From Candidatus Woesearchaeota archaeon (GTDB lineage Archaea > Nanobdellota > Nanobdellia > Woesearchaeales > GW2011-AR9), in contig JACQNE010000003.1 of assembly GCA_016203205.1 (NCBI GenBank), positions 1 to 49,729 on the forward strand: a DNA stretch of 49,729 nt. Direction: 5' to 3'. Numbering within the stretch: position 1 is the stretch's first letter; the number at the start of each line of letters is the position of its first letter. The notes beneath the pieces are model-generated. The model ran no database searches, was not told the origin of the DNA, and saw only the letters and a program-made list of their open reading frames with translations. The translations under genes and the position numbers were made by a program. Positions 4,592-48,144 of the stretch are shown in pieces.

Positions 4592-4744
4592 GGCACAATC
4601 CGAAAAGTGAGTGATAGTGAAGCCAAATTGTCGCTGAAGGATAGCCATAATCCTGGAACTGGTCCGATTTTCATCTGAAATCTAACCAAGGCAGAAAATC
4701 GGCTTCAGCGACGGCTCACTATCACTCCTAAAGTGGATTGTGCC
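4592..4744 (+). mobile_element. MITE family B, copy B1 (153 bp)
   Basis: Perfect 10-bp termini ggcacaatcc/ggattgtgcc sit within ~30-bp imperfect TIRs (..gtgagtgatagtgaagcc / ggctcactatcactc..). It is flanked by an exact 8-bp direct repeat attttggc (4584-4591 and 4745-4752). The interior is homologous to 31510-31665 in inverted orientation. Confidence 0.8.
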
Positions 4745-6684: not shown

Positions 6685-7218
6685 TTATCCAAATAAGATC
6701 TCTTTTTTCTTCCTTTCCAGAAATTGATATACTGTCTTATGCATTGACCCTTGCAGGAGCATGGCCACTGCCTGGCGGGCGATGGCAACATTATCTGTCT
6801 CTCCAACGATCCCGATTGTCTTTCCATAGACAGAGATGGCACAGCCCGTCAATCGTTCGATCTCTTCCCGGCTCTTTCCCCCCGTACCGATTACCCTGCC
6901 TTTCAGCCGTTCCAGCGTATTTCTACTTTTCCCGGCAATATCCTTCATCTCGATCATTTCTAATGCATAATCGGTCTTGTGAAGGAGCATGGCCGTCTTG
7001 GGGTTAAAACCACGGGCAATTGCCCGAACAATTTCTTTAGTGGTATAAAGTTCCACACCGTCATTTCCTTTGATGAGAACATCCCCTTCTGCTGAAATGT
7101 CCAAAACACAGTTGGTCAACTGTTCGATCTCTTTCTTGGTCACGCCATCCTTGCCGATCAATACTGCTACCCGTTCCTGCGGGATCTTTAATTCGTACGA
7201 AAATTCTTCGTGGTCCAT
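6685..7218 (-). CDS. two-KH-domain RNA-binding protein (Dim2/Pno1-like)
   Basis: Two GxxG KH cores are present (IGKDGVTKKEIE and IGTGGKSREEIE). It is translationally coupled (TAATG) to the upstream RIO kinase, a pairing I believe is common in archaea. Confidence 0.8.
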   Translation of the reverse strand: MDHEEFSYELKIPQERVAVLIGKDGVTKKEIEQLTNCVLDISAEGDVLIKGNDGVELYTTKEIVRAIARGFNPKTAMLLHKTDYALEMIEMKDIAGKSRNTLERLKGRVIGTGGKSREEIERLTGCAISVYGKTIGIVGETDNVAIARQAVAMLLQGSMHKTVYQFLERKKKEILFG

Positions 7219-9249: not shown

Positions 9250-10608
9250 ATGGCAAAAATAAGCCCAGTAGCGGCAAAATATATCATTCATTCAACGATT
9301 ACGATTGAGGGGATTGTCGATCGACCAGATGTTATCGGCGCAATTTTTGGGCAGACGGAAGGACTGCTGGGAAATGATCTGGAACTACGCGAACTACAAC
9401 GCAGCGGCCGTATTGGCCGCATTGAAGTCAACACCACTTCCAGTGGTGGCCGGACAAGTGGTGAAATTATCATCCCCAGTTCTTTGGATAAGACCGAAAC
9501 CGCCATCGTCGGTGCAGCGATGGAGATCATCCAGCGCATCGGCCCTTGCAATGCGAAGATCCAAGTCGGAAAAATAGAAGATGTGCGCATCAGTAAACGT
9601 CAATTTGTAATTGATCGGGCAAAACAGCTTCTGCGTCAATTAACCGAAGAAACTCTCCCCGATTCCCAAGAATTGGCTGACGAAGTCGCTCAATCCGTCC
9701 GGATGATGGAAGTTTGCGAATATGGCCCTGAACGTCTTGCTGCCGGACCGGGGATCGACGAAAGCGAAGAGGTCGTCATTGTGGAAGGCCGCGCTGATGT
9801 GTTGAACTTGCTGAAACATGGGTTTAAGAATGCTCTGGCGATGAATGGCACATCCTGTCCGCAGACGGTCAAAGATCTCAGCCACAAAAAGTCCATTACG
9901 GTCTTTGTCGATGGTGATCGTGGTGGCGATCTGATCATTCGGGAATTACTGAGTGTTGCTGACATCGATTTCGTCTGCAAAGCCCCAGATGGAAAAGAAG
10001 TTGAAGAAATAACCAAAAAAGAGATTCATAAAGCATTGCGCGGAAGGATTACCGCAGAACAGGCGAAAATGGATCTGGGCATCGATGAGCAAGGTGCTTT
10101 GCGGGAAGACCATCCGGATCAACATCAGAGCAGCTTCAACCGTAACCAACGGTCTTCATCCCGGCGCTTTGAAAATAGTCGGCCGCCACAAACAAGTCAA
10201 ACCAGTAATGGGAGTTCTGCGCTTCGTCCCAAAGTGTTGAGTAATACGCGGATGGAAAATAGCACCGCTGCACCTTTCGTTCCCCGTGGGGTAAGTGCTC
10301 CTCCACGGAAAACACTATCTCCGGAAGAGAAAAAAACACTGAAGAAGACTATGGAAGACCTCGTCGGAACACGAGGAGCCTGCATTTTTGATCCACAACT
10401 TAATATTCTGGGAAAAGTTCCTCTCAGCGAATTAAGTTCAACGATCAAGAGCCTCAATGGTGGAATCTATGGCGTTGCGTTAGACGGAGCAGTTGATATC
10501 GATCTATTAAAGCTGGTTGAAAAAATCGGCGTCAATTTTGTGATCGGCACATCAGCTAAGACAAAAGAGCCTTCTAAAGTAACAATTCTAACAGACGATC
10601 AACTGTAA
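9250..10608 (+). CDS. dnaG: archaeal DnaG-type primase/Toprim protein
   Basis: AAKYIIHSTITIEGIVDRPDVIGAIFGQTEGLLG is the conserved archaeal DnaG N-terminus. A Toprim region follows (VIVEGRADVLNL, FVDGDRGGD). There is an S/P/R/Q-rich linker before the C-terminal domain. The start was moved to the ATG at 9250. Confidence 0.9.
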   Translation: MAKISPVAAKYIIHSTITIEGIVDRPDVIGAIFGQTEGLLGNDLELRELQRSGRIGRIEVNTTSSGGRTSGEIIIPSSLDKTETAIVGAAMEIIQRIGPCNAKIQVGKIEDVRISKRQFVIDRAKQLLRQLTEETLPDSQELADEVAQSVRMMEVCEYGPERLAAGPGIDESEEVVIVEGRADVLNLLKHGFKNALAMNGTSCPQTVKDLSHKKSITVFVDGDRGGDLIIRELLSVADIDFVCKAPDGKEVEEITKKEIHKALRGRITAEQAKMDLGIDEQGALREDHPDQHQSSFNRNQRSSSRRFENSRPPQTSQTSNGSSALRPKVLSNTRMENSTAAPFVPRGVSAPPRKTLSPEEKKTLKKTMEDLVGTRGACIFDPQLNILGKVPLSELSSTIKSLNGGIYGVALDGAVDIDLLKLVEKIGVNFVIGTSAKTKEPSKVTILTDDQL

Positions 10609-10875
10609 AGTTGATTCTTTTTTTCTTTTCTTCCTTTTTTCTTCATGTCAAAATAGGCAGGGGACCACTGGTCAATAGACCGGTGGCATGTTCGCTTCGC
10701 TCACCCCTGCCTAATTTTGAACACGCAAGTATTCCACAAATAAATAAGTGGTTTGCTTGCAAACCACCACTCAAAACACTTAATGAAGCAACGACTTCAT
10801 TAGTGTCCCAGTGAAATATTCTTTTCACTGTGGAGAGTGGTGGAATACTCCGCGTTTTAACGATCAGGTGATTTC

Positions 10876-11319
10876 GTACGTATTAAATGAAATGAGCAGA
10901 AATCCCCACTATTCCCTGAAAAATGCTTTGCATTTTTGGGGTCCCAGAAGCAGCAGCTTCTGTGGATATAGTAGGGGATGAATGCTGCGATTGATTTCGC
11001 TACATTTCATTTCGGGAAATAAAGAAACTACTTTATTTCCGAACAGAAAAGAAATCGTTGTTTCTTTTCTTGTTTAGAAAATCTGTCTCGGAAAAATGGC
11101 GAAAATCCCCACCATTTATGGTTGGGGATAGCCACTTTTCAGGATTTTCTTTAAGTCTGTGCTTGGGCAGGTCGGTCTGCCTCGTCTCGCTCAGAAGTAG
11201 AGATTAGTTGAACTGAAGAACTATGCTCAGAGATGAGCGAGACAATTATCCCTCTGTCAAATCGCAACGCTCGGCAGGCCATCTTGACCAAGCCCGCACA
11301 GACTTAACTTAATACGTAC
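10876..11319 (+). mobile_element. MITE family A, copy A1, carrying a nested 268-bp insertion
   Basis: The ends gtacgtattaa...gcacagacttaacttaatacgtac match the other copies. An exact 8-bp direct repeat gtgatttc flanks it (10868-10875 and 11320-11327). Confidence 0.85.
10887..11154 (+). mobile_element. nested element X inside the terminal repeat of MITE A1
   Basis: It splits the conserved gtacgtattaa|gtctgtgc terminus. It is preceded by ttaa (10883-10886) and ends in ttaa (11151-11154). Its two ends are shared with the 80-bp insert at 31415-31494. Confidence 0.65.
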
Positions 11320-11363
11320 GTGATTTCGATAGTTTTTTATGCTTTTTACGCTTTAGTCACTAA

Positions 11364-12707
11364 ATGGTGTTTGATGTCATTATCGGCCGTTCCCGGAAAG
11401 ATGTTGAAAAACATGGCCAGCAAGGGACAATTCTCATCGGCAAACAATACGTCCAGATGGGCCAGACCGTCTCACTCTCCAACCCCGTGTATCTCGACGT
11501 TGCCGGCGCGCATGTTCTTTTTATTGTCGGAAAGAGAGGATCGGGAAAGTCTTACTCGCTCGGCGCCATCGCCGAAGGCCTTGCTGACCTGCCTCTCGAA
11601 ATCAGGCAAAACCTTTCCATTATCCTGCTGGATACCATGGGTATTTATTGGACAATGAAATATCCTAACTATCAGGATATAGGCTTATTAAAAGATTGGG
11701 GGATAGATCCTCGACCATTGGACGTTAAAATTTATACCCCCGCCGGATTTTACGGCCAGTATAAAGAATCGGGCATCCCTACCGATTTCCCTTTCTCCCT
11801 GCGCCCTATCGATGTTGACCCTCTCGACTGGTGCACAGCTTTTTCCATCCAGCCAAATTCGGCAGAAGGCGTGCTGATCACCAAGATTATCCAGCAGCTG
11901 AACGGCAAAGAAGAATCCTATGACCTGGATCAACTGATTCTGCTCATCAAAAAAGATACCGAAAGCGATCACGTCGTTAAAAGTATCGTTGTTAACCAAT
12001 TTGAAAAAGCAAAAGGCTGGGAAATTTTTTCCAAAGAAGGAACTCCGTTGAAAGAACTGATTGCAGGGGGTCAGGTAACCGTTCTTGACGTTTCCCCTTA
12101 TGCGACGATGTCTTCTGGCTGGGAAATTAAGTCTCTCGTCGTCGGTCTGATCTGCCGCACCCTCTTTAATCAACGCATGCTCGCCCGCAAAACAGAAGAA
12201 TTCAAGACTGTTGATGCGGCCATGCATTATTTCACCAAAGATGTGGAAGAGAAGCTCAAAGAACCGTTAGTCTGGATCGGTCTTGATGAAGCTCATGAAT
12301 TGCTGCCCAAAGAAGGAAAGACGGCGGCAACAGATTCACTCATCACCATTTTGCGGGAAGGGCGCCAGCCTGGCATCTCACTCATTCTCGCTTCGCAGCA
12401 GCCGGGCAAGATCCATACCGATGTCCTGACTCAGGCAGACACAGTCATCGCCCATCGCCTGACGGCACAGATCGACGTTGAGGCCTTGCAGCAATTAACC
12501 CAGAGCTACATGCGTCAAGGCTTAGAAGAGGAGATCAACCATCTGCCACGGGTGACGGGAGCTGCCGTCATTTTCGACGATGCTAACGAGCGCATCTTTC
12601 CCGTGCAGATGCGTCCAAGATTTACGTGGCATGGCGGCGGTTCACCAACTGCGCTGAAAGAGAAGAAAGATTCTGGAGAAAAGAGATTAAGAGAATTGGA
12701 TATTTGA
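11364..12707 (+). CDS. HerA/FtsK-like P-loop ATPase (DUF87-type)
   Basis: Walker A GKRGSGKS and Walker B LVWIGLDEAHELL are present, along with a later ILASQQPGKI...AHRL segment. No NurA-like partner is adjacent. Confidence 0.7.
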   Translation: MVFDVIIGRSRKDVEKHGQQGTILIGKQYVQMGQTVSLSNPVYLDVAGAHVLFIVGKRGSGKSYSLGAIAEGLADLPLEIRQNLSIILLDTMGIYWTMKYPNYQDIGLLKDWGIDPRPLDVKIYTPAGFYGQYKESGIPTDFPFSLRPIDVDPLDWCTAFSIQPNSAEGVLITKIIQQLNGKEESYDLDQLILLIKKDTESDHVVKSIVVNQFEKAKGWEIFSKEGTPLKELIAGGQVTVLDVSPYATMSSGWEIKSLVVGLICRTLFNQRMLARKTEEFKTVDAAMHYFTKDVEEKLKEPLVWIGLDEAHELLPKEGKTAATDSLITILREGRQPGISLILASQQPGKIHTDVLTQADTVIAHRLTAQIDVEALQQLTQSYMRQGLEEEINHLPRVTGAAVIFDDANERIFPVQMRPRFTWHGGGSPTALKEKKDSGEKRLRELDI

Positions 12708-13039: not shown

Positions 13040-13203
13040 GGCACTGTAGAAAAAGTCCTCCTGGCCATTGACCGCGGCGAAAACCAGTTGTGTTTAAGTT
13101 TATAGAACCAGTTATTTAATCTTATTCTTTTCGCACCCGTTCCAGCAGATCACTCCTCGCGGTCAATCTTGAGGCCAAGCAGACGACTTTTTCTATAGAG
13201 CCC
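13040..13203. mobile_element. MITE family C (164 bp), abutting B2
   Basis: TIR is ggcactgtagaaaaagtc / gactttttctatagagcc(c). It is flanked by tacggttt at 13032-13039 and again at 13204-13211. End fragments of the same family lie at about 21108-21137 and 24421-24443. Confidence 0.75.
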
Positions 13204-23870: not shown

Positions 23871-24191
23871 CTAAAACTCTTCTTCCAGATTCTTCAAATA
23901 GCCCCTCTTCCGCAAGAAATCAACTTCGGCTTTTCCCCGATACTTATAGACAACATCTCCTTTTTCATCACCGCCCAATTCCCAGGGCTGAATGATGACT
24001 ACATCATTCTCTCGTACCCATAACGCTCGGCGCAGACTTCCTGGGATACGGCAGATACGTTCTTTCCCATCCAGACAGAGAACACGCATCCGGCTTCCCC
24101 CCAGGCGCTGCTGGACAATTCCCAAAACTTCTTTTCCTTGCGGGATGCGCACCCGGATCACTTGCGGTTCTTCTTCGTTTGGTCTAGACAT
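23871..24191 (-). CDS. eif1a: translation initiation factor aIF1A
   Basis: S1-like OB core: RMRVLCLDGKERICRIPGSLRRALWVRENDVVIIQPW. Confidence 0.9.
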   Translation of the reverse strand: MSRPNEEEPQVIRVRIPQGKEVLGIVQQRLGGSRMRVLCLDGKERICRIPGSLRRALWVRENDVVIIQPWELGGDEKGDVVYKYRGKAEVDFLRKRGYLKNLEEEF

Positions 24192-24237
24192 TTATCCCCT
24201 TAAAAAGGCTGCTTCTTTAAAAATGATTGCTTTCTTG

Positions 24238-24413
24238 GTACATATTAAGTTAAGTCTGTGCGAGCTTGGTCAAGATGATCTGCCGAGCGTTGCTATTGGA
24301 CAGAAAAATGATGGTCTCGCTCATCTCTGAATATCATTCTTCAGTTCAACTTTTCTCAGCTTCTGGGCGAGACGAGGCAGACCGACCTGCTCGAGCACAG
24401 ACTTAATACGTAC
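24238..24413 (-). mobile_element. MITE family A, copy A2 (inverted orientation)
   Basis: gtacatattaagttaagtctgtgc...gcacagacttaatacgtac. The flanking octamers ctttcttg and ttttcttg match at 7 of 8 positions. Confidence 0.85.
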
Positions 24414-24475
24414 TTTTCTTGGCGTTTAGTAGAAAAAGTCGTCGCAAGCAGCAGGGTATGATACTCAGGAGGAAA

Positions 24476-25986: not shown

Positions 25987-26865
25987 TCAAAACGAGAGGA
26001 GGCTCTGTCGGACAATCTCACTGTAAATATCAACGTTTTCCAAGACAAATGCCTCTACCACGGCTCCCATGAGCAAAAAGAGCAAGGCAACTACGATCAG
26101 ATAAAGATTAAAGCCAAATACCCGGAAAAAACGATCGGAAGCAAATTTCTCCAGAATGACATCTTTGGAGATCACCGATCCGGCGATCGCCGCCAGAAAA
26201 TAAGAAATCCCTTCGATGATCATGTGCGGGAATACGATGAGCATGACAATCCCAAAGATGTACACCACGTTTGCTCCAGAAAAAGAAGCAGCATTCTTTG
26301 CCGTGATCCCAAAGATCGTCCCCCACACTGACGCATTCCAGATAATCAGAAAGATTGCTCCGTCTCCCGTGAGCAGTGCCATGATGAAACAGGCGATCAT
26401 CACCAGCAAATTATTACTTAACAGCTCAACAAAGAGACCGCTTTCAAAAAAACCTCCTGAGATAGCCTGCCCGGCAAACCCTTCCCCAAAGCGGATCTCC
26501 AGCTGCTCCCGAAACAACTCATTCGTCTGGATGCTGGGAAGAAGGATCGTCCCCAGAGAATAAACTAGAATAACACCTAAAAACAGGAAAACATAAATCC
26601 GCACGATTTCAATATCATTCTTCCAGAGCGAGAGGAATGTTGTCTTCTGCTCCAGGCTTTGTTTTCTTTCCTGATACGAGAAAATTTTGTACATCTCCGG
26701 GAGGATGAGCATGGAGGTCAAGGCTACTCCCACTAATGCCGGGTCTTTCGGAAAAAGGACGGAAGCAACCAATACTCCCACTATCGCATAGATAGCACCA
26801 AGGATAAAAGCATAGACCCCTCGTTTTTCCAGCCAGTCTTCCGGGAAAAGATGTTCTAATACCAA
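25987..26865 (-). CDS. SpoIIM-like (DUF95) integral membrane protein
   Basis: The multi-TM layout and overall pattern resemble archaeal stage II sporulation protein M homologues. Confidence 0.6.
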   Translation of the reverse strand: MVLEHLFPEDWLEKRGVYAFILGAIYAIVGVLVASVLFPKDPALVGVALTSMLILPEMYKIFSYQERKQSLEQKTTFLSLWKNDIEIVRIYVFLFLGVILVYSLGTILLPSIQTNELFREQLEIRFGEGFAGQAISGGFFESGLFVELLSNNLLVMIACFIMALLTGDGAIFLIIWNASVWGTIFGITAKNAASFSGANVVYIFGIVMLIVFPHMIIEGISYFLAAIAGSVISKDVILEKFASDRFFRVFGFNLYLIVVALLFLLMGAVVEAFVLENVDIYSEIVRQSLLSF

Positions 26866-26920: not shown

Positions 26921-27096
26921 GTGCGTATTTAGTCTAGTCTGTGCGGGCTTGGTCAAGATGGTCTGCCGAGCGTTGCTATTGGACAGAAAAATTATGGTCT
27001 CGCTCATCTCAGAGAATAGTTCTGGAGAAAAGTTGATCACACTTTTTTGGCGAGACGAGACAGATCAGCCAGCCCAAGCACAGACTTAATACGTGG
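26921..27096 (-). mobile_element. MITE family A, copy A3 (inverted orientation, degraded ends)
   Basis: gtgcgtatttagtctagtctgtgc...gcacagacttaatacgtgg. The interior aligns with A2 and A4. No clear target duplication is visible. Confidence 0.75.
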
Positions 27097-30311: not shown

Positions 30312-31259
30312 ATGACACAATTAGATTTGTTAGTCGTTAGCAATGCCATCACGGATAAGGTTTACCATGTCAGTGCTGCTGTTCTTCAGGGTCTAGATTT
30401 ACGTCGTGGGGCAGAGCATCGTGCTGCGCTTCGTTCACAGATAGAAGAAAAACTAAAGGATATTCCTAAAGCCTACGAAAGCCCTGCCGGCTCGCCGGCC
30501 AATGTTGGATTTTCTGCTGCCGTTTTGGGAGCGAGAGTTGGTCTTATCGGTTCGCTCGGCGGCGATCATCTCGGTACGAAATATCGAGAGATGCTGGGCA
30601 GATACGCAGTTGCTGACCACACTCAACTTTCCACTACTTACCCCAGTGGTGTTTGTTATACGTTGATTACTGAAGATGGGGAACGGACATTTCTCAATCT
30701 GATGAACGCCGCTCCCCATTTTGATTTAGACCAAGCACCAATTTCGGCAAAGATCATCCATACTTCCTGTTATGAGATTGTGGACAAAGAAAAAGAGTTC
30801 ATCGGTTATCTTCAAAGAGCCAAAAAAGCAGGCGCCAAGATAAGTCTGGATCTCGCTGATCCGCATACGTGTCATAAGATCGGCAATGGTCAGACGATGC
30901 GGGCTATTCTGGATCTTACTGACATTCTCTTTGCCTCTCCGGAAGAATATGCCGCTGCTGTCGGGAAGGAATTTGATTCTTTCTCTGAACATCCTTGCAA
31001 TAACCAGGTGGTGTGTTTAAAATTGGGAAAACGAGGATCTCGCGTCTTGGCAGAGGGGATTGATCTCCCCATTCCGATTGTTTCAACAACCGTGATCAAC
31101 ACCAATGGCGCGGGTGATGGCTATGCTGCCGGCTTCCTCTTTGCCTACCTTCAGAATACGGATTTAGCCATGTGCGGGATGTATGGCAGTTCTGTCGCCT
31201 CCCAGATCGTTGGGCAGGTCGCAGCAAGCCTGCCTCTAAACCAAGAAGTACGTATTTAG
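30312..31259 (+). CDS. PfkB-family carbohydrate/nucleoside kinase
   Basis: GSPANV near the N-terminus and NTNGAGDGYAAGF near the C-terminus are PfkB signatures. The last three codons and the stop lie inside MITE A4. Confidence 0.8.
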   Translation: MTQLDLLVVSNAITDKVYHVSAAVLQGLDLRRGAEHRAALRSQIEEKLKDIPKAYESPAGSPANVGFSAAVLGARVGLIGSLGGDHLGTKYREMLGRYAVADHTQLSTTYPSGVCYTLITEDGERTFLNLMNAAPHFDLDQAPISAKIIHTSCYEIVDKEKEFIGYLQRAKKAGAKISLDLADPHTCHKIGNGQTMRAILDLTDILFASPEEYAAAVGKEFDSFSEHPCNNQVVCLKLGKRGSRVLAEGIDLPIPIVSTTVINTNGAGDGYAAGFLFAYLQNTDLAMCGMYGSSVASQIVGQVAASLPLNQEVRI

Positions 31260-31501
31260 TTAAGTCTGTGCGGGCTTGGTCAAGATGGCCTGCCGAACGT
31301 TGCTGTTGGACAGAAAGATAATTCTCGCTCATCTCTGAGTATAGTTCTGGAGAGAAGTTGATTACACTTTCTGGGCGAGACGAGGCAGGCCGGCCTGCCC
31401 ATGCATAGACTTAAAGAAAATCCTGAAAAGAGGCTACAAGAAATACAACAGAGATTGTATTTCTGTACCGAAATGAAATAGTTTTTTCATGTAATACGTA
31501 C
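31248..31501 (-). mobile_element. MITE family A, copy A4 (inverted), carrying an 80-bp nested insert
   Basis: gtacgtatttagttaagtctgtgc...gcatagacttaa[80 bp]tacgtac. The interior aligns with A2 and A3. Confidence 0.85.
31415..31494 (-). mobile_element. nested element Y (short relative of X) in the MITE A4 terminus
   Basis: Sits at the same ttaa position of the family A terminus as X. It shares agaaaatcctgaaaag at one end and gaaatgaaat...tcat at the other. Confidence 0.6.
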
Positions 31502-31509
31502 TGCTCGTC

Positions 31510-31665
31510 GGCATAATCTTTTTTTGAGTGATGGTGAGCACACCAGTGGAATGACTAGATTTAAGAAATTTCAGAGACACAGAAGAAAATCGGACCGGTT
31601 CCCAGATTATAGCTATCCTTCAGCGACTATTTGGCTTCACTATCACTCACCTTTTTGATTGTGCC
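31510..31665 (-). mobile_element. MITE family B, copy B3 (inverted relative to B1)
   Basis: ggcataatc...gattgtgcc. The interior is the reverse complement of B1 (gaaaatcggaccggttcccagattatagctatccttcagcgac). The flanking octamers tgctcgtc and tgttcatc match at 6 of 8 positions. Confidence 0.8.
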
Positions 31666-42998: not shown

Positions 42999-43017
42999 TT
43001 TTTTGAATGTTGTTAGC

Positions 43018-43192
43018 GTACGTATTAAGTCTGTGCTTGGCGGGTCGGTCTGCCTCGTCTCGCTCGAAAGCGAATAGCAGTTGAACTGAAGAGTTATTCC
43101 TAAAAATGAGCGAGACTCCGGATTTCTGGCTCAAAGCCAGTGCTCGGCAGACCATCTTGACCCAGCCCGCACAGACTTAACTTAATACGTAC
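43018..43192 (+). mobile_element. MITE family A, copy A5 (175 bp)
   Basis: gtacgtattaagtctgtgc...gcacagacttaacttaatacgtac. The flanking octamers ttgttagc and ttgtcggc match at 6 of 8 positions. It is nearly identical in layout to A6. Confidence 0.85.
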
Positions 43193-43257
43193 TTGTCGGC
43201 AATACTTTTATAAAAGAGATGGCTATTTTTGTTCTGCTCCGCAAATTTAAGTTTCAC

Positions 43258-43425
43258 GTGGGCGTGCCGGAGCGGTCAAACGGGATAGTTCGTTTGGCAA
43301 AGGTGCTAAATGAGTCCATACTCAAGTCGTTTGGGTTGTGAGGCTTCCCTCAGAGGTCGATGAAAAACCGTGAGCCATCTATTGGCTTAGTGCCTACGCA
43401 GGTTCAAATCCTGCCGCCCACACCA
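43258..43425 (+). tRNA. class-II-like tRNA (Ser/Leu-type D-arm) with about 80 nt of intervening sequence; anticodon not resolved
   Basis: Acceptor GTGGGCG/CGCCCAC is 7/7 paired. D-arm is CCGG-AGCGGTCAA-ACGG. T-arm is GCAGG-TTCAAAT-CCTGC. A73 and an encoded CCA are followed by T7. The span is 168 nt against the ~88 nt expected for a class II tRNA. Confidence 0.6.
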
Positions 43426-43491
43426 TTTTTTTATTATGTACATCGCATTCACACTAGGAGGGTTGATAAGGGCAGACTGCCCTTATGCGCG

Positions 43492-43533
43492 GTGCCTACG
43501 CAGGTTCAAATCCTGCCGCCCACACCATTTTTT
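43492..43533 (+). repeat. exact 42-bp duplicate of the tRNA 3' end (T-arm, acceptor 3' strand, CCA, T-run)
   Basis: gtgcctacgcaggttcaaatcctgccgcccacaccatttttt is identical at 43390-43431 and 43492-43533. No matching 5' acceptor strand precedes the second copy. Confidence 0.9.
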
Positions 43534-43731
43534 AATTCCCGTCTGGGTAGATCGGCTCAAAAATAAGAAACTTTAACTTGATGACATTGGGGGGCAACCA
43601 CCCCGCAACGCCCTTGTTGTCAGATTGCGGGCGTTCGACTTTATGCTGCTGAGTCCTCTACAGGGACAGGCTCTTAATCGTGAGGTGATGAGTTAGCAAA
43701 ACTTATTATATCCTAAGATAATCTATTGATA

Positions 43732-46362: not shown

Positions 46363-47115
46363 TTACTCCCATTTCATTAGTCTGCTATGGTTTATTGTTT
46401 TGAGGGCAATCCTCTCACCATCATTCCTGGCTAATACGTGATCCAGAAGCCTTATTTCAAGGCCAGGACTTAATTTGCGTTCAATTTCAGCACAAAGCCA
46501 GTGGTAGGCCTTCTCCCTAAAGTCTGGATTGATGATCTGTGGTTTTTTCACACCACGGAGCTGAAGCCAATATTTGTCTTCCAAAGTACTGATAGCGCCA
46601 ATCAGCCCGTTGTGAACATGCCTGTAAAATGAATCACGAGGCATGGCAATTTCCCGGACAATCAAACCCTTGCCTTCCAAAACCTCAATGCTGGGATCAA
46701 ATTTATTCCCCCGATAGGCAACATGATTTAATCGATTTCCCCAGGTCCAGGCAACGCTGTAAGCATCTTTTTCTGTCTCCGTAACGATTCCCTGTTGGGT
46801 AAGATAATTCTCTTCTTCCTTTTCTTCCCGTTTTCTTTCTTCCACCAAAAAATGCTCCATCTGTTCTCGCTGCAACGTATCCTCTTTTTCGAGACGGTAT
46901 AACTCACGGTCAAAAACAAAAGCATACGCTGAATGGACCGCTTCTATATACTGAGCCAAACGATCCCACCGTTCTGCCGATCTGATCATTTTCTTCCATT
47001 CTTCAGGAGGAGGTGGCGGTGTTACTTGTAAAAACGGTGCCAGGCTTTTACCAGCGTAAATACAGCTCAAATCTCTTTCAGTATTTAGTACGTCCAACCT
47101 CTCTATTAAATCCAT
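46363..47115 (-). CDS. hypothetical protein
   Basis: An intact 250-aa ORF with a central E/K-rich stretch and no recognised motif. Confidence 0.35.
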   Translation of the reverse strand: MDLIERLDVLNTERDLSCIYAGKSLAPFLQVTPPPPPEEWKKMIRSAERWDRLAQYIEAVHSAYAFVFDRELYRLEKEDTLQREQMEHFLVEERKREEKEEENYLTQQGIVTETEKDAYSVAWTWGNRLNHVAYRGNKFDPSIEVLEGKGLIVREIAMPRDSFYRHVHNGLIGAISTLEDKYWLQLRGVKKPQIINPDFREKAYHWLCAEIERKLSPGLEIRLLDHVLARNDGERIALKTINHSRLMKWE

Positions 47116-47161: not shown

Positions 47162-47336
47162 GTACGTATTAAGTCTGTACTGGGCAGGTCGGCCTGCCTC
47201 GTCTCGCCCAGAAGCGGAGAGCAGTTAAACTGAAGAGCTATTCCTAAAAATAAGCGAGACTCTGGATTTCTGGCTCAAAGCCAACGCTCGGCAGGCCATC
47301 TTGACCCGACCCGCACAGACTTAACTTAATACGTAC
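47162..47336 (+). mobile_element. MITE family A, copy A6 (175 bp)
   Basis: gtacgtattaagtctgtac...gcacagacttaacttaatacgtac. The flanking octamers tcccccac and tcctccac match at 7 of 8 positions. Confidence 0.85.
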
Positions 47337-47397: not shown

Positions 47398-48144
47398 ATG
47401 AAACTTGTCTTAGCAGAACCAAAATATTTTAAAGAGAGTATCAGTATTATTTCTGACTTAGTTACAGAAGCAAAATTTAAAGTTACATCAGCAGGTCTAG
47501 AGTTGGTTGCAATGGACCCGGCGAATGTTGCCATGGTCATCTTTAAGCTCTTGAGCAGTTCATTTGTGGAATGTAAAGTGAAAGGAACAGAGGAGCTAGC
47601 GGTTAACCTGAACCAATTGAAACAAATCCTGCGACGGGCTAAAAGTGATGACACAGTTACGCTGGAAACAACGGATGATGCCAAACTGACCATCCAATTT
47701 AAGAGTAATACGACGCGCTCTTTTTCCATCCCCACGCTGGATCTTGATGAGAAAGAGCAAAAAGTACCGGAATTGACTTTCCCATTGAGCGTGACAACAC
47801 ATTCATCCATTTTAGCTGATTCCATCGATGATGTCAGTGTCGTCGCAGAATCAGTCACTTTCCTGGGAGAAGCAAAGATGCTCTCCGTGAAAGCGGAAGG
47901 AGACTTGTCCAAAGCGTTTATTGAGATCAACGCTGATGAGAATACGGTGATCAAAGCTGCCGGAGATGCAAAACATAAAGCTAAATATTCCTTAGAATAT
48001 CTGAAGAAGATGGCTGCCGCAGGGAAGATGGCCGATCAGGTCAGCCTGCAGTTTAATAATGATTATCCATTGAAGTTAGAGTATAAAGTCACTGACCGGC
48101 TGTTGATGAGCTTTATTCTGGCACCAAGAGTGGATAATGATTAA
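47398..48144 (+). CDS. pcn: DNA polymerase sliding clamp (PCNA)
   Basis: Length, the N-terminal ...FKESISIISDLVTEAKFKVTSAGLELVAMDPANVAMV and the C-terminal ...LAPRVD are typical of archaeal PCNA. Confidence 0.93.
   Translation: MKLVLAEPKYFKESISIISDLVTEAKFKVTSAGLELVAMDPANVAMVIFKLLSSSFVECKVKGTEELAVNLNQLKQILRRAKSDDTVTLETTDDAKLTIQFKSNTTRSFSIPTLDLDEKEQKVPELTFPLSVTTHSSILADSIDDVSVVAESVTFLGEAKMLSVKAEGDLSKAFIEINADENTVIKAAGDAKHKAKYSLEYLKKMAAAGKMADQVSLQFNNDYPLKLEYKVTDRLLMSFILAPRVDND

What the first reader, a model, noticed from the sequence alone, without database searches (positions are those of the whole stretch)
43018..43192. Family A: six copies of a ~175-bp hairpin-forming MITE in 37 kb, in both orientations
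The same element occurs at 10876-11319, 24238-24413, 26921-27096, 31248-31501, 43018-43192 and 47162-47336. All copies share the termini gtacgtattaagtctgtgc ... gcacagacttaacttaatacgtac. Inner blocks are also complementary (ggtctgcc/ggcagacc, tctcgctc/gagcgaga), so a transcript would fold into one long imperfect hairpin. Flanking octamers are direct repeats: exact gtgatttc at A1, 7 of 8 at A2 and A6, and 6 of 8 at A5. That pattern fits 8-bp target-site duplication. Two sequence subfamilies are visible: A5/A6 against A1-A4. No transposase ORF lies in the window, so the elements must be mobilised in trans or be relics. This density is notable for a genome that otherwise has almost no spacer DNA.
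Basis: seen in the sequence. Interest (0 to 1): 0.7.

Follow-up and report, generated by a model that had tools for sequence, protein, structure and literature searches.

The report
Promoter-docking mini-transposon in a tiny archaeon
The six repeats are real copies of a small non-coding transposon (a MITE tied to the IS66 family) in a DPANN archaeon, and it almost always inserts at one exact spot, six bases upstream of a gene's TATA box, which points to a promoter-guided 'safe landing' not previously described for archaeal transposons.

Summary
Six copies of a ~176-bp hairpin-forming element lie at the stated coordinates. Two of them (A1, A4) carry nested inserts. The host is a Woesearchaeota-type (DPANN) archaeon. 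With a related genome and metagenomes I compiled 27 non-redundant insertion sites. The 8-bp target-site duplication is exact in 14 and at least 7/8 in 19. A complete 1,303-bp IS66-family (single-ORF, ISBst12-like) insertion sequence has a terminus identical over 19/19 nt, so the MITE reading is supported and its family is identified. The window has no transposase.

The new result is the insertion site. In 24 of 27 sites (26 with relaxed scoring) a TATA box starts 13-17 nt from one element end, and at exactly 15 nt in 17 sites. That is the 8-bp duplication, then a 6-nt BRE, then TTTATATA, with the start codon about 30 nt further on. A uniform-insertion-plus-selection null predicts 3-5% (P<=1e-24). 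Independent insertions hit the same nucleotide in two lineages, and two different MITE families reused one octamer (a triple GCTGGTTA). Full-length IS66-like elements with exact duplications are all in the same register. How the site is recognised (TFB/TBP-bound DNA or direct sequence read-out) is unresolved.

The parts
10876..11319 (+). A1: family A MITE carrying a nested 264-bp TTAA-flanked insert (10887-11150). TSD GTGATTTC at 10868-10875 and 11320-11327. TATA-like TTTTTTAT at 11333-11340 in front of the HerA-like gene (11364-12707).
24238..24413 (-). A2: intact copy. TSD CAAGAAAA/CAAGAAAG (24414-24421 and 24230-24237). Its right end faces caatca-TTTTTAAA, the promoter of eIF-1A (23871-24191). 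The site is empty in the relative.
26921..27096 (-). A3: older copy with degenerate termini. TSD 6/8 (GGCATACC/AGCACACC). Its right end faces gtaact-TATATAAA, the promoter of the SpoIIM-like gene (25987-26865). In the relative the same nucleotide position holds a different-subfamily copy in the opposite orientation.
31248..31501 (-). A4: copy with a nested 76-bp insert (31415-31490). It has no TSD and no TATA box and sits exactly at a synteny breakpoint. It supplies the last 3 codons and the stop codon of PfkB (30312-31259). The PfkB-side junction equals a predicted phased target in the relative.
43018..43192 (+). A5 (the reported coordinates): intact copy. TSD TTGTTAGC/TTGTCGGC (43010-43017 and 43193-43200). 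This is followed by aatact (43201-43206) and the TATA box TTTATAAA (43207-43214) of an intron-containing tRNA gene (43258-43425).
47162..47336 (+). A6: intact copy. TSD TCCCCCAC/TCCTCCAC. It lies between divergent promoters: TATA at +19 on the right (PCNA gene 47398-48144) and at +17 on the left (gene 46363-47115).
31510..31665 (+). Family B MITE (termini GGCATAATC...GATTGTGCC, flanks TGCTCGTC/TGTTCATC 6/8), abutting the 8 nt next to A4's left end. It is a different family with the same insertion register elsewhere.
4592..4744 (-). Family B MITE, second window copy. Exact 8-bp TSD GCCAAAAT. TATA at +23, which is an exception to the register.
13040..13202 (+). Family C MITE (termini GGCACTGTAGAAAAAGTC...), exact 9-bp TSD CTACGGTTT, in a convergent-gene spacer with no TATA box. 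Elsewhere 7-8 of the 9 C copies have a TATA box 16-18 nt from one end.

Best explanation
Family A is a non-autonomous transposon (MITE, ~176 bp). It has the terminal inverted repeats of an archaeal single-ORF IS66-family (ISBst12-like) insertion sequence and is moved in trans by such a DDE transposase, making 8-bp target-site duplications.

Its target is not random. The staggered cut is placed so that the duplicated octamer ends directly at the upstream edge of a promoter's BRE. The layout is element end, 8-bp TSD, 6-nt BRE (consensus GAAANN, usually preceded by C), TATA box starting at +15, and start codon about 30 nt later. The core promoter and the upstream gene are both left intact, so the site is a safe landing place in a genome with almost no spacer. 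Successive elements pile up at the same nucleotide.

Shown here: the copies, termini and TSDs; the IS66-type partner; the register and its statistics; reuse of the same target. Inferred: that the register is set at the integration step rather than by later selection, and that an IS66-like transposase is the actual mobiliser. Unresolved: how the promoter is recognised.

The long hairpin is a consequence of the ~50-nt conserved inverted arms, which are presumably transposase-binding ends. It is not a selected RNA structure.
For: MITE identity:
- 27 non-redundant sites. The TSD is exact in 14 and at least 7/8 in 19, against a control mean of 2.2/8.
- Flanks are unrelated between copies.
- Up to 97.7% identity between copies at different sites, so activity is recent.

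Family:
- L045 is a complete 1,303-bp IS whose right end is 19/19 identical to the MITE terminus and whose left end is 15/15 identical.
- Its 412-aa ORF passes NCBIfam NF033517 IS66 transposase (200 bits, cutoff 180) and Pfam DDE_Tnp_IS66 (1e-31) plus zf-IS66.
- The P0006 subgroup, with 17/17-nt identical ends, occurs in the same Rifle sample as the MITEs.
- Clade termini are GTA[ACT]GTA[ACT]T[AT]AGTC with 8-bp TSDs, matching published ISBst12/IS66 features (PMC12898284).

Register:
- A TATA match of at least 7/8 starts 13-19 nt from one end in 24/27 sites, and at exactly 15 in 17.
- The unrealigned anchored profile shows C(8)-GAAA(9-12)-TTTATATA(15-22), a T-rich patch at 33-36 and A at 45, with no information on the distal side.
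- Ordinary promoters have the same TATA-to-ATG geometry.
- A uniform-insertion-into-harmless-DNA null gives 3-5% in register, P<=2.5e-24. Distal spacers range up to more than 140 nt. Only 1 of 27 copies lies in a convergent spacer.

Same-nucleotide reuse:
- A3 and R12 have the same TSD but opposite orientation and 76% identity, against ~90% for the flanks.
- L012 reads TATA-tttc-GCTGGTTA-[A]-GCTGGTTA-[B]-GCTGGTTA.
- Family C ends lie exactly 9 nt from A copies.

Full-length IS elements:
- 4 of 4 elements with an exact TSD have the TATA box at exactly +15.
- 14 of 42 unique end-flanks are in register, against ~3-4% by chance (P~1e-9 to 1e-11).
Against: - No transposase of this clade was found in the window or in the held parts of the related genome, so the mobiliser is inferred from other contigs.
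- Only the terminal 17-19 nt are shared with the sampled IS elements. The conserved MITE arms are not.
- No perfectly clean empty site, with both flanks collinear, was recovered. The orthologous comparisons are complicated by other rearrangements.
- All observed insertions have survived selection, so a contribution of selection to the register cannot be excluded. Families B and C also show the register, which would be expected equally from a general selective filter.
- Exceptions exist: B at window 4592 (TATA at +23), C at 13040 (no TATA), and most of the marine P0089 subgroup.
- Most copies come from one population or species pair, so the 27 sites are not phylogenetically broad.
Confidence: 0.78

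Rival explanations
1. Same MITE, but insertion is essentially random. The promoter register is produced afterwards by purifying selection, because in a genome this compact the only harmless place is the few bases between the upstream gene and the BRE.
For: The genome is dense: at least 84% is in ORFs of 100 aa or more, and some TATA boxes overlap the upstream stop codon. In several sites the upstream stop codon lies within 3-10 nt of the element. Three unrelated MITE families show the same register, as a general filter would predict.
Against: Even after masking all ORFs of at least 40 aa, all promoter cores and all repeats, only 3-5% of harmless positions are in register, against 24/27 observed. 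Many sites had 40-170 nt of free distal spacer. Convergent spacers, where insertion should be harmless, hold only 1 of 27 copies. The offset is exactly 15 in 17 sites. Independent events reuse the identical octamer. Young copies with perfect TSDs are all in register.
Confidence: 0.12
2. The repeats are copies of a functional structured RNA or DNA element, for example a small RNA gene, a terminator/insulator hairpin or a regulator-binding palindrome. On this view they are kept upstream of promoters because of what they do, and mobility is secondary.
For: The fold is very stable (z = -10.5). The arms are >90% conserved across copies that are 66-98% identical overall. One pair shows a C-G to T-A double change in 5 copies. 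One central module carries a T5 run that could terminate archaeal read-through.
Against: No Rfam family matches at the gathering or relaxed thresholds. The RNAalifold covariation term is about 0. Both strands fold about equally well, as expected of inverted termini. The central modules, including the T-run, are not conserved. Copies occur in both orientations relative to the promoter. TSDs and a transposase-bearing partner explain the conservation of the ends.
Confidence: 0.05
3. The copies are parts of larger segmental duplications or assembly artefacts rather than discrete insertions.
For: Metagenome assemblies break and sometimes mis-join at these repeats.
Against: Similarity between copies stops exactly at the GTAC termini, and the flanks are unrelated apart from the per-copy 8-bp duplication. 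The same sites are seen in independent assemblies: the GTDB MAG, two JGI metagenomes and Logan contigs.
Confidence: 0.01

Closest known systems
ISBst12 group of the IS66 family (single-ORF IS66 elements, e.g. ISBst12, ISDge4) and MITEs derived from IS elements
   Same: 8-bp target-site duplication; termini beginning GTA; one DDE_Tnp_IS66 transposase of ~410-450 aa in the full-length partner; non-coding short derivative sharing the termini (PMC12898284).
   Different: No target preference is given for IS66/ISBst12 elements in the papers I could read, whereas this archaeal clade sits in a fixed register with BRE/TATA. The host is a DPANN archaeon. The MITE shares only the outer 17-19 nt with the sampled IS elements. 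Some clade members carry an extra small DUF2080 ORF instead of the tnpA/tnpB of classical IS66.
Ty3 (yeast) and TRE5-A / DGLT-A (Dictyostelium): retrotransposons that integrate at a fixed distance from Pol III genes through TFIIIB (TBP + the TFIIB-like Brf1)
   Same: Integration at a fixed distance from a TBP/TFIIB-type factor binding site, interpreted as a safe haven in a gene-dense genome (PMC5391098, PMC5006619, PMC8632968). One copy here (A5) sits upstream of a tRNA gene.
   Different: Those are retroelements in eukaryotes with demonstrated integrase-TFIIIB contacts. Here the element is a DDE DNA transposon and MITE in an archaeon, it targets protein-gene promoters as well, and no protein contact has been shown.
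Correia elements (Neisseria) and other bacterial MITEs found upstream of genes
   Same: Short inverted-repeat elements, many copies, mostly intergenic and often just upstream of genes; can invert; affect or border promoters (PMC10969869).
   Different: Correia elements duplicate TA and carry their own promoters and IHF site. Family A duplicates 8 bp of arbitrary sequence, carries no recognisable promoter, and is positioned to within ±1-2 nt relative to the host TATA box.
Known archaeal MITEs (Sulfolobus SM1-4, Halobacterium ISH2/MITEHsal, Haloquadratum)
   Same: Non-autonomous elements with IS-like termini and TSDs in archaeal genomes (PMC10969869, PMC7002104).
   Different: Different IS families and hosts. 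None is reported from DPANN archaea or with a promoter-phased target in the literature searched.

Membership tests
MITE (miniature inverted-repeat transposable element) | Short, non-coding, with terminal inverted repeats | tested here: met
   175-176 bp. Termini GTACGTATTAAGTCTGTGC / GCACAGACTTAA(CTTAA)TACGTAC. No ORF.
MITE (miniature inverted-repeat transposable element) | Target-site duplication of fixed length flanking each copy | tested here: met
   8 bp. Exact in 14/27 and at least 7/8 in 19/27. Control mean 2.2/8.
MITE (miniature inverted-repeat transposable element) | Many copies at unrelated loci; presence/absence between related genomes | tested here: met
   27 sites. The A2 site is empty in the relative. 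R4 is absent from the window. A3 and R12 are independent fills of one site. No junction with both flanks perfectly collinear was recovered.
MITE (miniature inverted-repeat transposable element) | Termini shared with an autonomous element that encodes the transposase | tested here: met
   L045 is a 1,303-bp IS with a 19/19-nt identical right end. The P0006 group has 17/17. These were found on other contigs, not in the same genome.
IS66 family, ISBst12 (single-ORF) group | DDE transposase matching the IS66 family models | tested here: met
   NCBIfam NF033517, 200.3 bits (cutoff 180). Pfam PF03050, 1.3e-31, plus zf-IS66. 1,401 homologues; those with names are annotated as IS66 family.
IS66 family, ISBst12 (single-ORF) group | 8-bp direct repeats and GTA-type terminal inverted repeats; a single ORF | tested here: met
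   Exact 8-bp TSDs at L061/63, L081, L083 and L085. Termini GTA[ACT]GTA... L045, P0002 and P0006 elements have one ORF in 1,303 bp. Criteria as stated for ISDge4 in PMC12898284.
IS66 family, ISBst12 (single-ORF) group | The transposase actually binds and moves the family A ends | not testable with these tools
   Needs a transposition or binding assay.
Transcription-factor-guided integration (Ty3/TRE5-A type) | Integration at a fixed distance from a basal transcription factor binding site | tested here: met
   TATA box at +15 in 17 of 26 sites, with all 26 within 13-17. BRE directly abuts the TSD. Same register in full-length IS elements.
Transcription-factor-guided integration (Ty3/TRE5-A type) | Physical dependence on the factor (TBP/TFB) rather than on DNA sequence alone | not testable with these tools
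   Indirect only: three families with unrelated termini share the proximal cut. C at TSD position 8 is enriched relative to ordinary promoters (19/26 vs 10/27, p = 0.013), which could reflect either explanation.
Described structured RNA family (Rfam) | Match to a covariance model, or covariation supporting a structure | tested here: not met
   0 hits at the gathering threshold over the window and none relevant at relaxed thresholds in the two regions searched that way, 43200-43720 and 10600-11160. Covariation term -0.02 kcal/mol; 2 of 34 pairs have any double change.
Correia/REP-type bacterial repeats | TA (Correia) or no (REP) target duplication; family-specific termini | tested here: not met
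   8-bp TSD of arbitrary sequence; termini unrelated; archaeal host.

The most novel reading that the evidence does not exclude
The integration machinery of this archaeal IS66-like clade, and perhaps of other transposons in these DPANN genomes, is guided by the TFB/TBP-bound, bent promoter DNA itself. It would cut at the upstream edge of the pre-initiation complex. That would make it a DNA-transposon counterpart, in archaea, of TFIIIB-guided Ty3/TRE5-A integration. It would explain why three MITE families with unrelated ends share the same proximal cut and why independent insertions reuse the same octamer.
Probability: 0.35. Interest if true: 0.85.

Novelty: new variant of a known kind. Interest (0 to 1): 0.72.

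Why it matters
MITEs and IS66 elements are known, so the bare repeat family is a new member of a known kind and, as far as the literature I searched shows, the first described for DPANN archaea. The new part is the target rule: a DNA transposon and its miniature derivatives that land, to the nucleotide, at the upstream edge of the BRE/TATA core promoter.

If integration really reads promoter architecture, three things follow.
- It shows how mobile DNA can persist in ~1-Mb genomes with almost no spacer.
- It gives a prokaryotic parallel to the TBP/TFIIB-family-guided retrotransposon targeting of yeast and amoebae.
- It offers a practical tool. Copies mark active promoters in uncultivated archaea, and the transposase could be used for promoter-proximal insertion.

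It also matters for annotation. These elements split assemblies, supply stop codons (PfkB here) and mark rearrangement points.

Tried and rejected
- Rfam at the gathering threshold on the whole window and at relaxed thresholds on two regions: nothing relevant.
- Default ARAGORN found no tRNA. Only intron mode revealed the tRNA downstream of A5.
- Consensus folding for covariation: no support for a selected structure.
- Solitary termini in held DNA: none.
- Multi-copy ORFs in ~400 kb of related DNA as transposase candidates: ABC ATPases, a dehydrogenase, a Bro-N protein and two reverse transcriptases, but no transposase.
- Viral contig scan: 0 hits.
- Look-ups of flanking proteins (RNase J, eIF-1A, PCNA) for empty sites in other strains: only same-strain Logan fragments broken at the repeats.
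- Family C as an unphased internal control: it turned out to be phased too, so it did not discriminate.
- First version of the null model masked phased positions through near-palindromic TATA hits. It was redone with one promoter per gene.
- A1 and R4 orthologous sites as clean empty sites: rejected. The relative keeps a ~45-nt degenerate stub at A1, and the R4 comparison involves an extra 38 nt flanked by GGAG(G)ATAG.
- In-situ inversion as the explanation for A3 versus R12: judged unlikely, because identity is 76% against ~90% for the flanks and each has closer relatives elsewhere.
- MITE arms as a deletion derivative of a sampled IS: rejected, because only 17-19 terminal nt match.
- Flanks of full-length IS elements against MITE-bearing contigs: only distant (64-76%) gene homology, so there is no proof that they share a genome.

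Full report
**1. The observation**

Repeat detection, alignment and a profile search confirm six copies of one element at the coordinates given: A1 10876-11319 (+), A2 24238-24413 (-), A3 26921-27096 (-), A4 31248-31501 (-), A5 43018-43192 (+) and A6 47162-47336 (+). The termini are as described. A3 is degenerate. A1 and A4 are longer because a second small element, flanked by TTAA, sits inside the left terminus (10887-11150 and 31415-31490). A5 folds into a long imperfect hairpin at -85.4 kcal/mol, z = -10.5. The opposite strand folds nearly as well. In addition A3 is 6/8 and A4 2/8.

**2. Host and further copies**

The neighbouring genes (eIF-1A, DnaG-type Toprim, HerA, RNase J, topoisomerase VI, PCNA) show that the host is an archaeon. 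A scan of one genome per species with a block invariant in all six copies hit only Candidatus Woesearchaeota RIFCSPLOWO2_01_FULL_44_20, a DPANN archaeon, with 14 matches on 11 contigs, plus two chance bacterial hits. That genome is a relative of the window organism at 84-92% nucleotide identity. One of its contigs is syntenic with window 7-16 kb and 18-31 kb. A metagenome scan with the terminal motif added more sites, mostly from the same Rifle aquifer population. After de-duplication by flank there are 27 distinct insertion sites.

**3. It is a transposon**

The 8-bp target-site duplication is exact in 14 of 27 sites and at least 7/8 in 19. Mismatched left/right flank pairs average 2.2/8 and never exceed 6. 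Similarity between copies stops exactly at the GTAC termini. Copies at different sites reach 97.7% identity.

Orthologous comparisons:
- The eIF-1A promoter is empty in the relative, with a single octamer TGAGAAAG before the same caatca-TTTTTAAA.
- The relative keeps only a ~45-nt degenerate stub at the A1 site.
- The relative has a copy (R4) that the window lacks.
- A4 lies exactly at a synteny break. Its PfkB-side junction coincides with an intact, predicted target in the relative. This explains its missing duplication as a later rearrangement.

**4. The family**

One metagenome contig, L045, matched the terminal motif but not the MITE body. It is a complete 1,303-bp insertion sequence. Its left end is GTACGTATTAAGTCT... 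and its right end is ...GCACAGACTTAATACGTAC, which is 19/19 identical to the MITE terminus. It has one 412-aa ORF whose stop codon lies inside the right terminus. The ORF passes the NCBIfam IS66 transposase model (200 bits, cutoff 180) and Pfam DDE_Tnp_IS66 plus zf-IS66.

The ORF has 1,401 relatives at E<=1e-20. Those with names are annotated as IS66 transposases of 'Nanoarchaeota' and one Hodarchaeales archaeon. Fetched full-length relatives are 1.3-1.56 kb with termini GTA[ACT]GTA[ACT]T[AT]AGTC and 8-bp duplications. The more divergent ones add a small DUF2080 ORF. The 71%-identical subgroup, whose right end is 17/17 identical to the MITE terminus, occurs in the same Rifle sample as the MITE copies. 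These features match published criteria for the single-ORF ISBst12 group of the IS66 family (PMC12898284).

No transposase is present in the window or among multi-copy ORFs in the held related DNA. The MITE shares only its outer 17-19 nt with the sampled IS elements.

**5. The hairpin**

Across 26 copies the outer ~50 nt on each side are >90% conserved in sequence, and the centre is a mosaic of interchangeable modules. RNAalifold gives a covariation term of about 0, and only one pair (C-G to T-A in five copies) changes on both sides. Rfam has no match. I read the hairpin as a by-product of long inverted transposase-binding ends, not as a selected RNA.

**6. The new finding: a promoter register**

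Reading outward from the element, a TATA box (at least 7/8 match to TTTAWAWA) starts 13-19 nt from one end in 24 of 27 sites, or 26 with relaxed scoring. It starts at exactly 15 in 17 sites, and all 26 fall within 13-17.

Anchored only on the element end, with no realignment, the flank profile reads C at TSD position 8 (19/26), GAAA at 9-12, TTTATATA at 15-22, a T-rich patch at 33-36 and A at 45. The distal flank and TSD positions 1-7 carry no information. An ORF start follows 27-47 nt after the TATA box. Ordinary genes in the window have the same TATA-to-ATG geometry of about 30 nt (leaderless) and a weaker RAAA BRE. So the motif is the host core promoter, and the duplicated octamer ends exactly at the upstream edge of the BRE.

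The genes behind the window copies are HerA-like, eIF-1A, SpoIIM-like, an intron-containing tRNA and PCNA. Orientation is only biased: 16 copies have the right end facing the promoter and 5 the left end (p = 0.027).

**7. Targeting or selection?**

I masked all ORFs (down to 40 aa), every promoter core and all repeats. Only 3-5% of the remaining harmless target positions in the window would give the observed register, so 22 or more of 27 has P<=2.5e-24. Many sites had 40-170 nt of free spacer on the distal side. Convergent spacers, where insertion should be harmless, hold one copy of 27.

Three observations are hard to explain without site-precise integration:
- **(a) A3 versus R12.** They occupy the same nucleotide position with the same duplication in two lineages. 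They are in opposite orientations, are 76% identical where the flanks are ~90%, and each has closer relatives elsewhere.
- **(b) The triple octamer.** In L012 the order is TATA-tttc-GCTGGTTA-[family A]-GCTGGTTA-[family B]-GCTGGTTA, so two unrelated MITE families used the same 8-bp target in succession.
- **(c) Family C spacing.** Family C makes 9-bp duplications, and its ends lie exactly 9 nt from family A copies. The promoter-proximal cut is therefore the same and the distal cut is one base further out.

Families B and C are themselves mostly in register: B in 3 of 4 intact copies, and C in 7-8 of 9.

The full-length IS66-like elements behave the same way. All four with an exact duplication have the TATA box at exactly +15. 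Fourteen of 42 unique end-flanks are in register, where about half would be expected if one side of each element faces a promoter and 3-4% by chance. Mismatched flank pairs in those contigs re-pair across contigs and are assembly chimeras.

**8. What remains open**

All insertions seen have passed selection, so selection may sharpen the pattern. I give the selection-only view about 0.12.

The recognition step is unknown. That three families with unrelated ends share the proximal cut favours a host-determined target, namely DNA bound and bent by TBP/TFB. The enrichment of C before the BRE relative to ordinary promoters (19/26 against 10/27, p = 0.013) would fit either strong-BRE promoters or base read-out.

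There are exceptions: B at window 4592 (+23), C at 13040 (no TATA box), and most of a marine subgroup of the IS.

The mobiliser has not been found in the same genome.

**9. Comparison and novelty**

- **Membership.** MITE: all defining features are met. IS66/ISBst12 affiliation: met for the transposase model, duplication length, termini and ORF number. Actual mobilisation is untested.
- **Closest functional analogue.** The nearest parallel is TFIIIB-guided integration of Ty3 and TRE5-A in compact eukaryotic genomes (PMC5391098, PMC5006619, PMC8632968). Those are retroelements with demonstrated protein contacts.
- **Literature.** A 2024 review lists archaeal MITEs only from Sulfolobus, Halobacterium, Haloquadratum, Desulfurococcus and a few others. 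It mentions no promoter-phased insertion (PMC10969869). Searches for Woesearchaeota MITEs, or for an IS66 target preference at archaeal promoters, found nothing.
- **Rating.** I rate the element a new variant of a known kind: an IS66-type MITE with a promoter-phased target rule.

Noticed in passing
window 43258-43425 and 43492-43537: A tRNA gene with a ~70-nt intron that default ARAGORN and Rfam both miss. The isotype call (Phe) from intron mode is doubtful, because the gene looks like a long-variable-arm type. Its last 46 nt are repeated 102 nt downstream at 98% identity. This could be an att-like remnant or a separate 3' half gene.
   Followed up: partly
window 31510-31665 and 4592-4744; L012 7201-7353; L013 3576-3728: Family B: a third MITE family of ~155 bp with termini GGCACAATCC...GGATTGTGCC and 8-bp TSDs. 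It is mostly in the same +15 promoter register. The window copy at 4592 is an exception (+23).
   Followed up: partly
window 13040-13202; L015 3504-3666 and others: Family C: a ~163-bp MITE with termini GGCTCTGKAGAAAAAGTC and 9-bp TSDs (exact in 5 of 9). 7-8 of its 9 copies have a TATA box 16-18 nt from one end. Truncated C remnants lie next to A2 and A3.
   Followed up: partly
window 10887-11150 (in A1) and 31415-31490 (in A4); related pieces at L036 6042-6193: A further small element with ends ATGAAA...CAGGATTTTCT is inserted at the same TTAA inside the left terminus of two family A copies that belong to different sub-types. This suggests either site-specific nesting or spread by recombination.
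   Followed up: partly
window 10642-10861 vs L004 1459-1741: A ~220-bp block immediately left of A1 is 95-98% identical to a non-syntenic place in the relative. That is far above the 84-92% genome background. It is absent from the orthologous site and has no Rfam match. It may be an unknown mobile element or a small RNA gene.
   Followed up: partly
L012 7012-7361: A triple copy of the octamer GCTGGTTA separates the promoter, a family A copy and a family B copy. It is a fossil record of two successive insertions into the same 8-bp target.
   Followed up: yes
window 31245-31259: The PfkB-family kinase gene ends inside A4. Its last three codons and its stop codon (…GTA CGT ATT TAG) come from the element, replacing the AAG TAA seen in the relative.
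   Followed up: yes
L014 2328-3401; L022 9859-10962: Two ~360-aa reverse transcriptases (RVT_1) sit in different contexts of the related Woesearchaeota DNA. They could be diversity-generating retroelements.
   Followed up: no
L070-L083 (e.g. L083 459-623): Divergent members of the IS66-like clade carry a 54-65-aa DUF2080 ORF overlapping the transposase start. It is absent from the 1,303-bp elements and could be an accessory factor.
   Followed up: no
L046 6140-6826: The relative has an extra ~230-aa gene with its own TATA box between eIF-1A and the CDP-alcohol phosphatidyltransferase gene. The window has A2 plus a family C remnant at that position.
   Followed up: no
L014 ~6781-6790 vs L027 6340-6375: Two 99.7%-identical contigs differ by a 21-nt deletion that removes the left TSD and the first 7 nt of the element's terminus. 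This is an example of a copy being immobilised by a small terminal deletion.
   Followed up: partly
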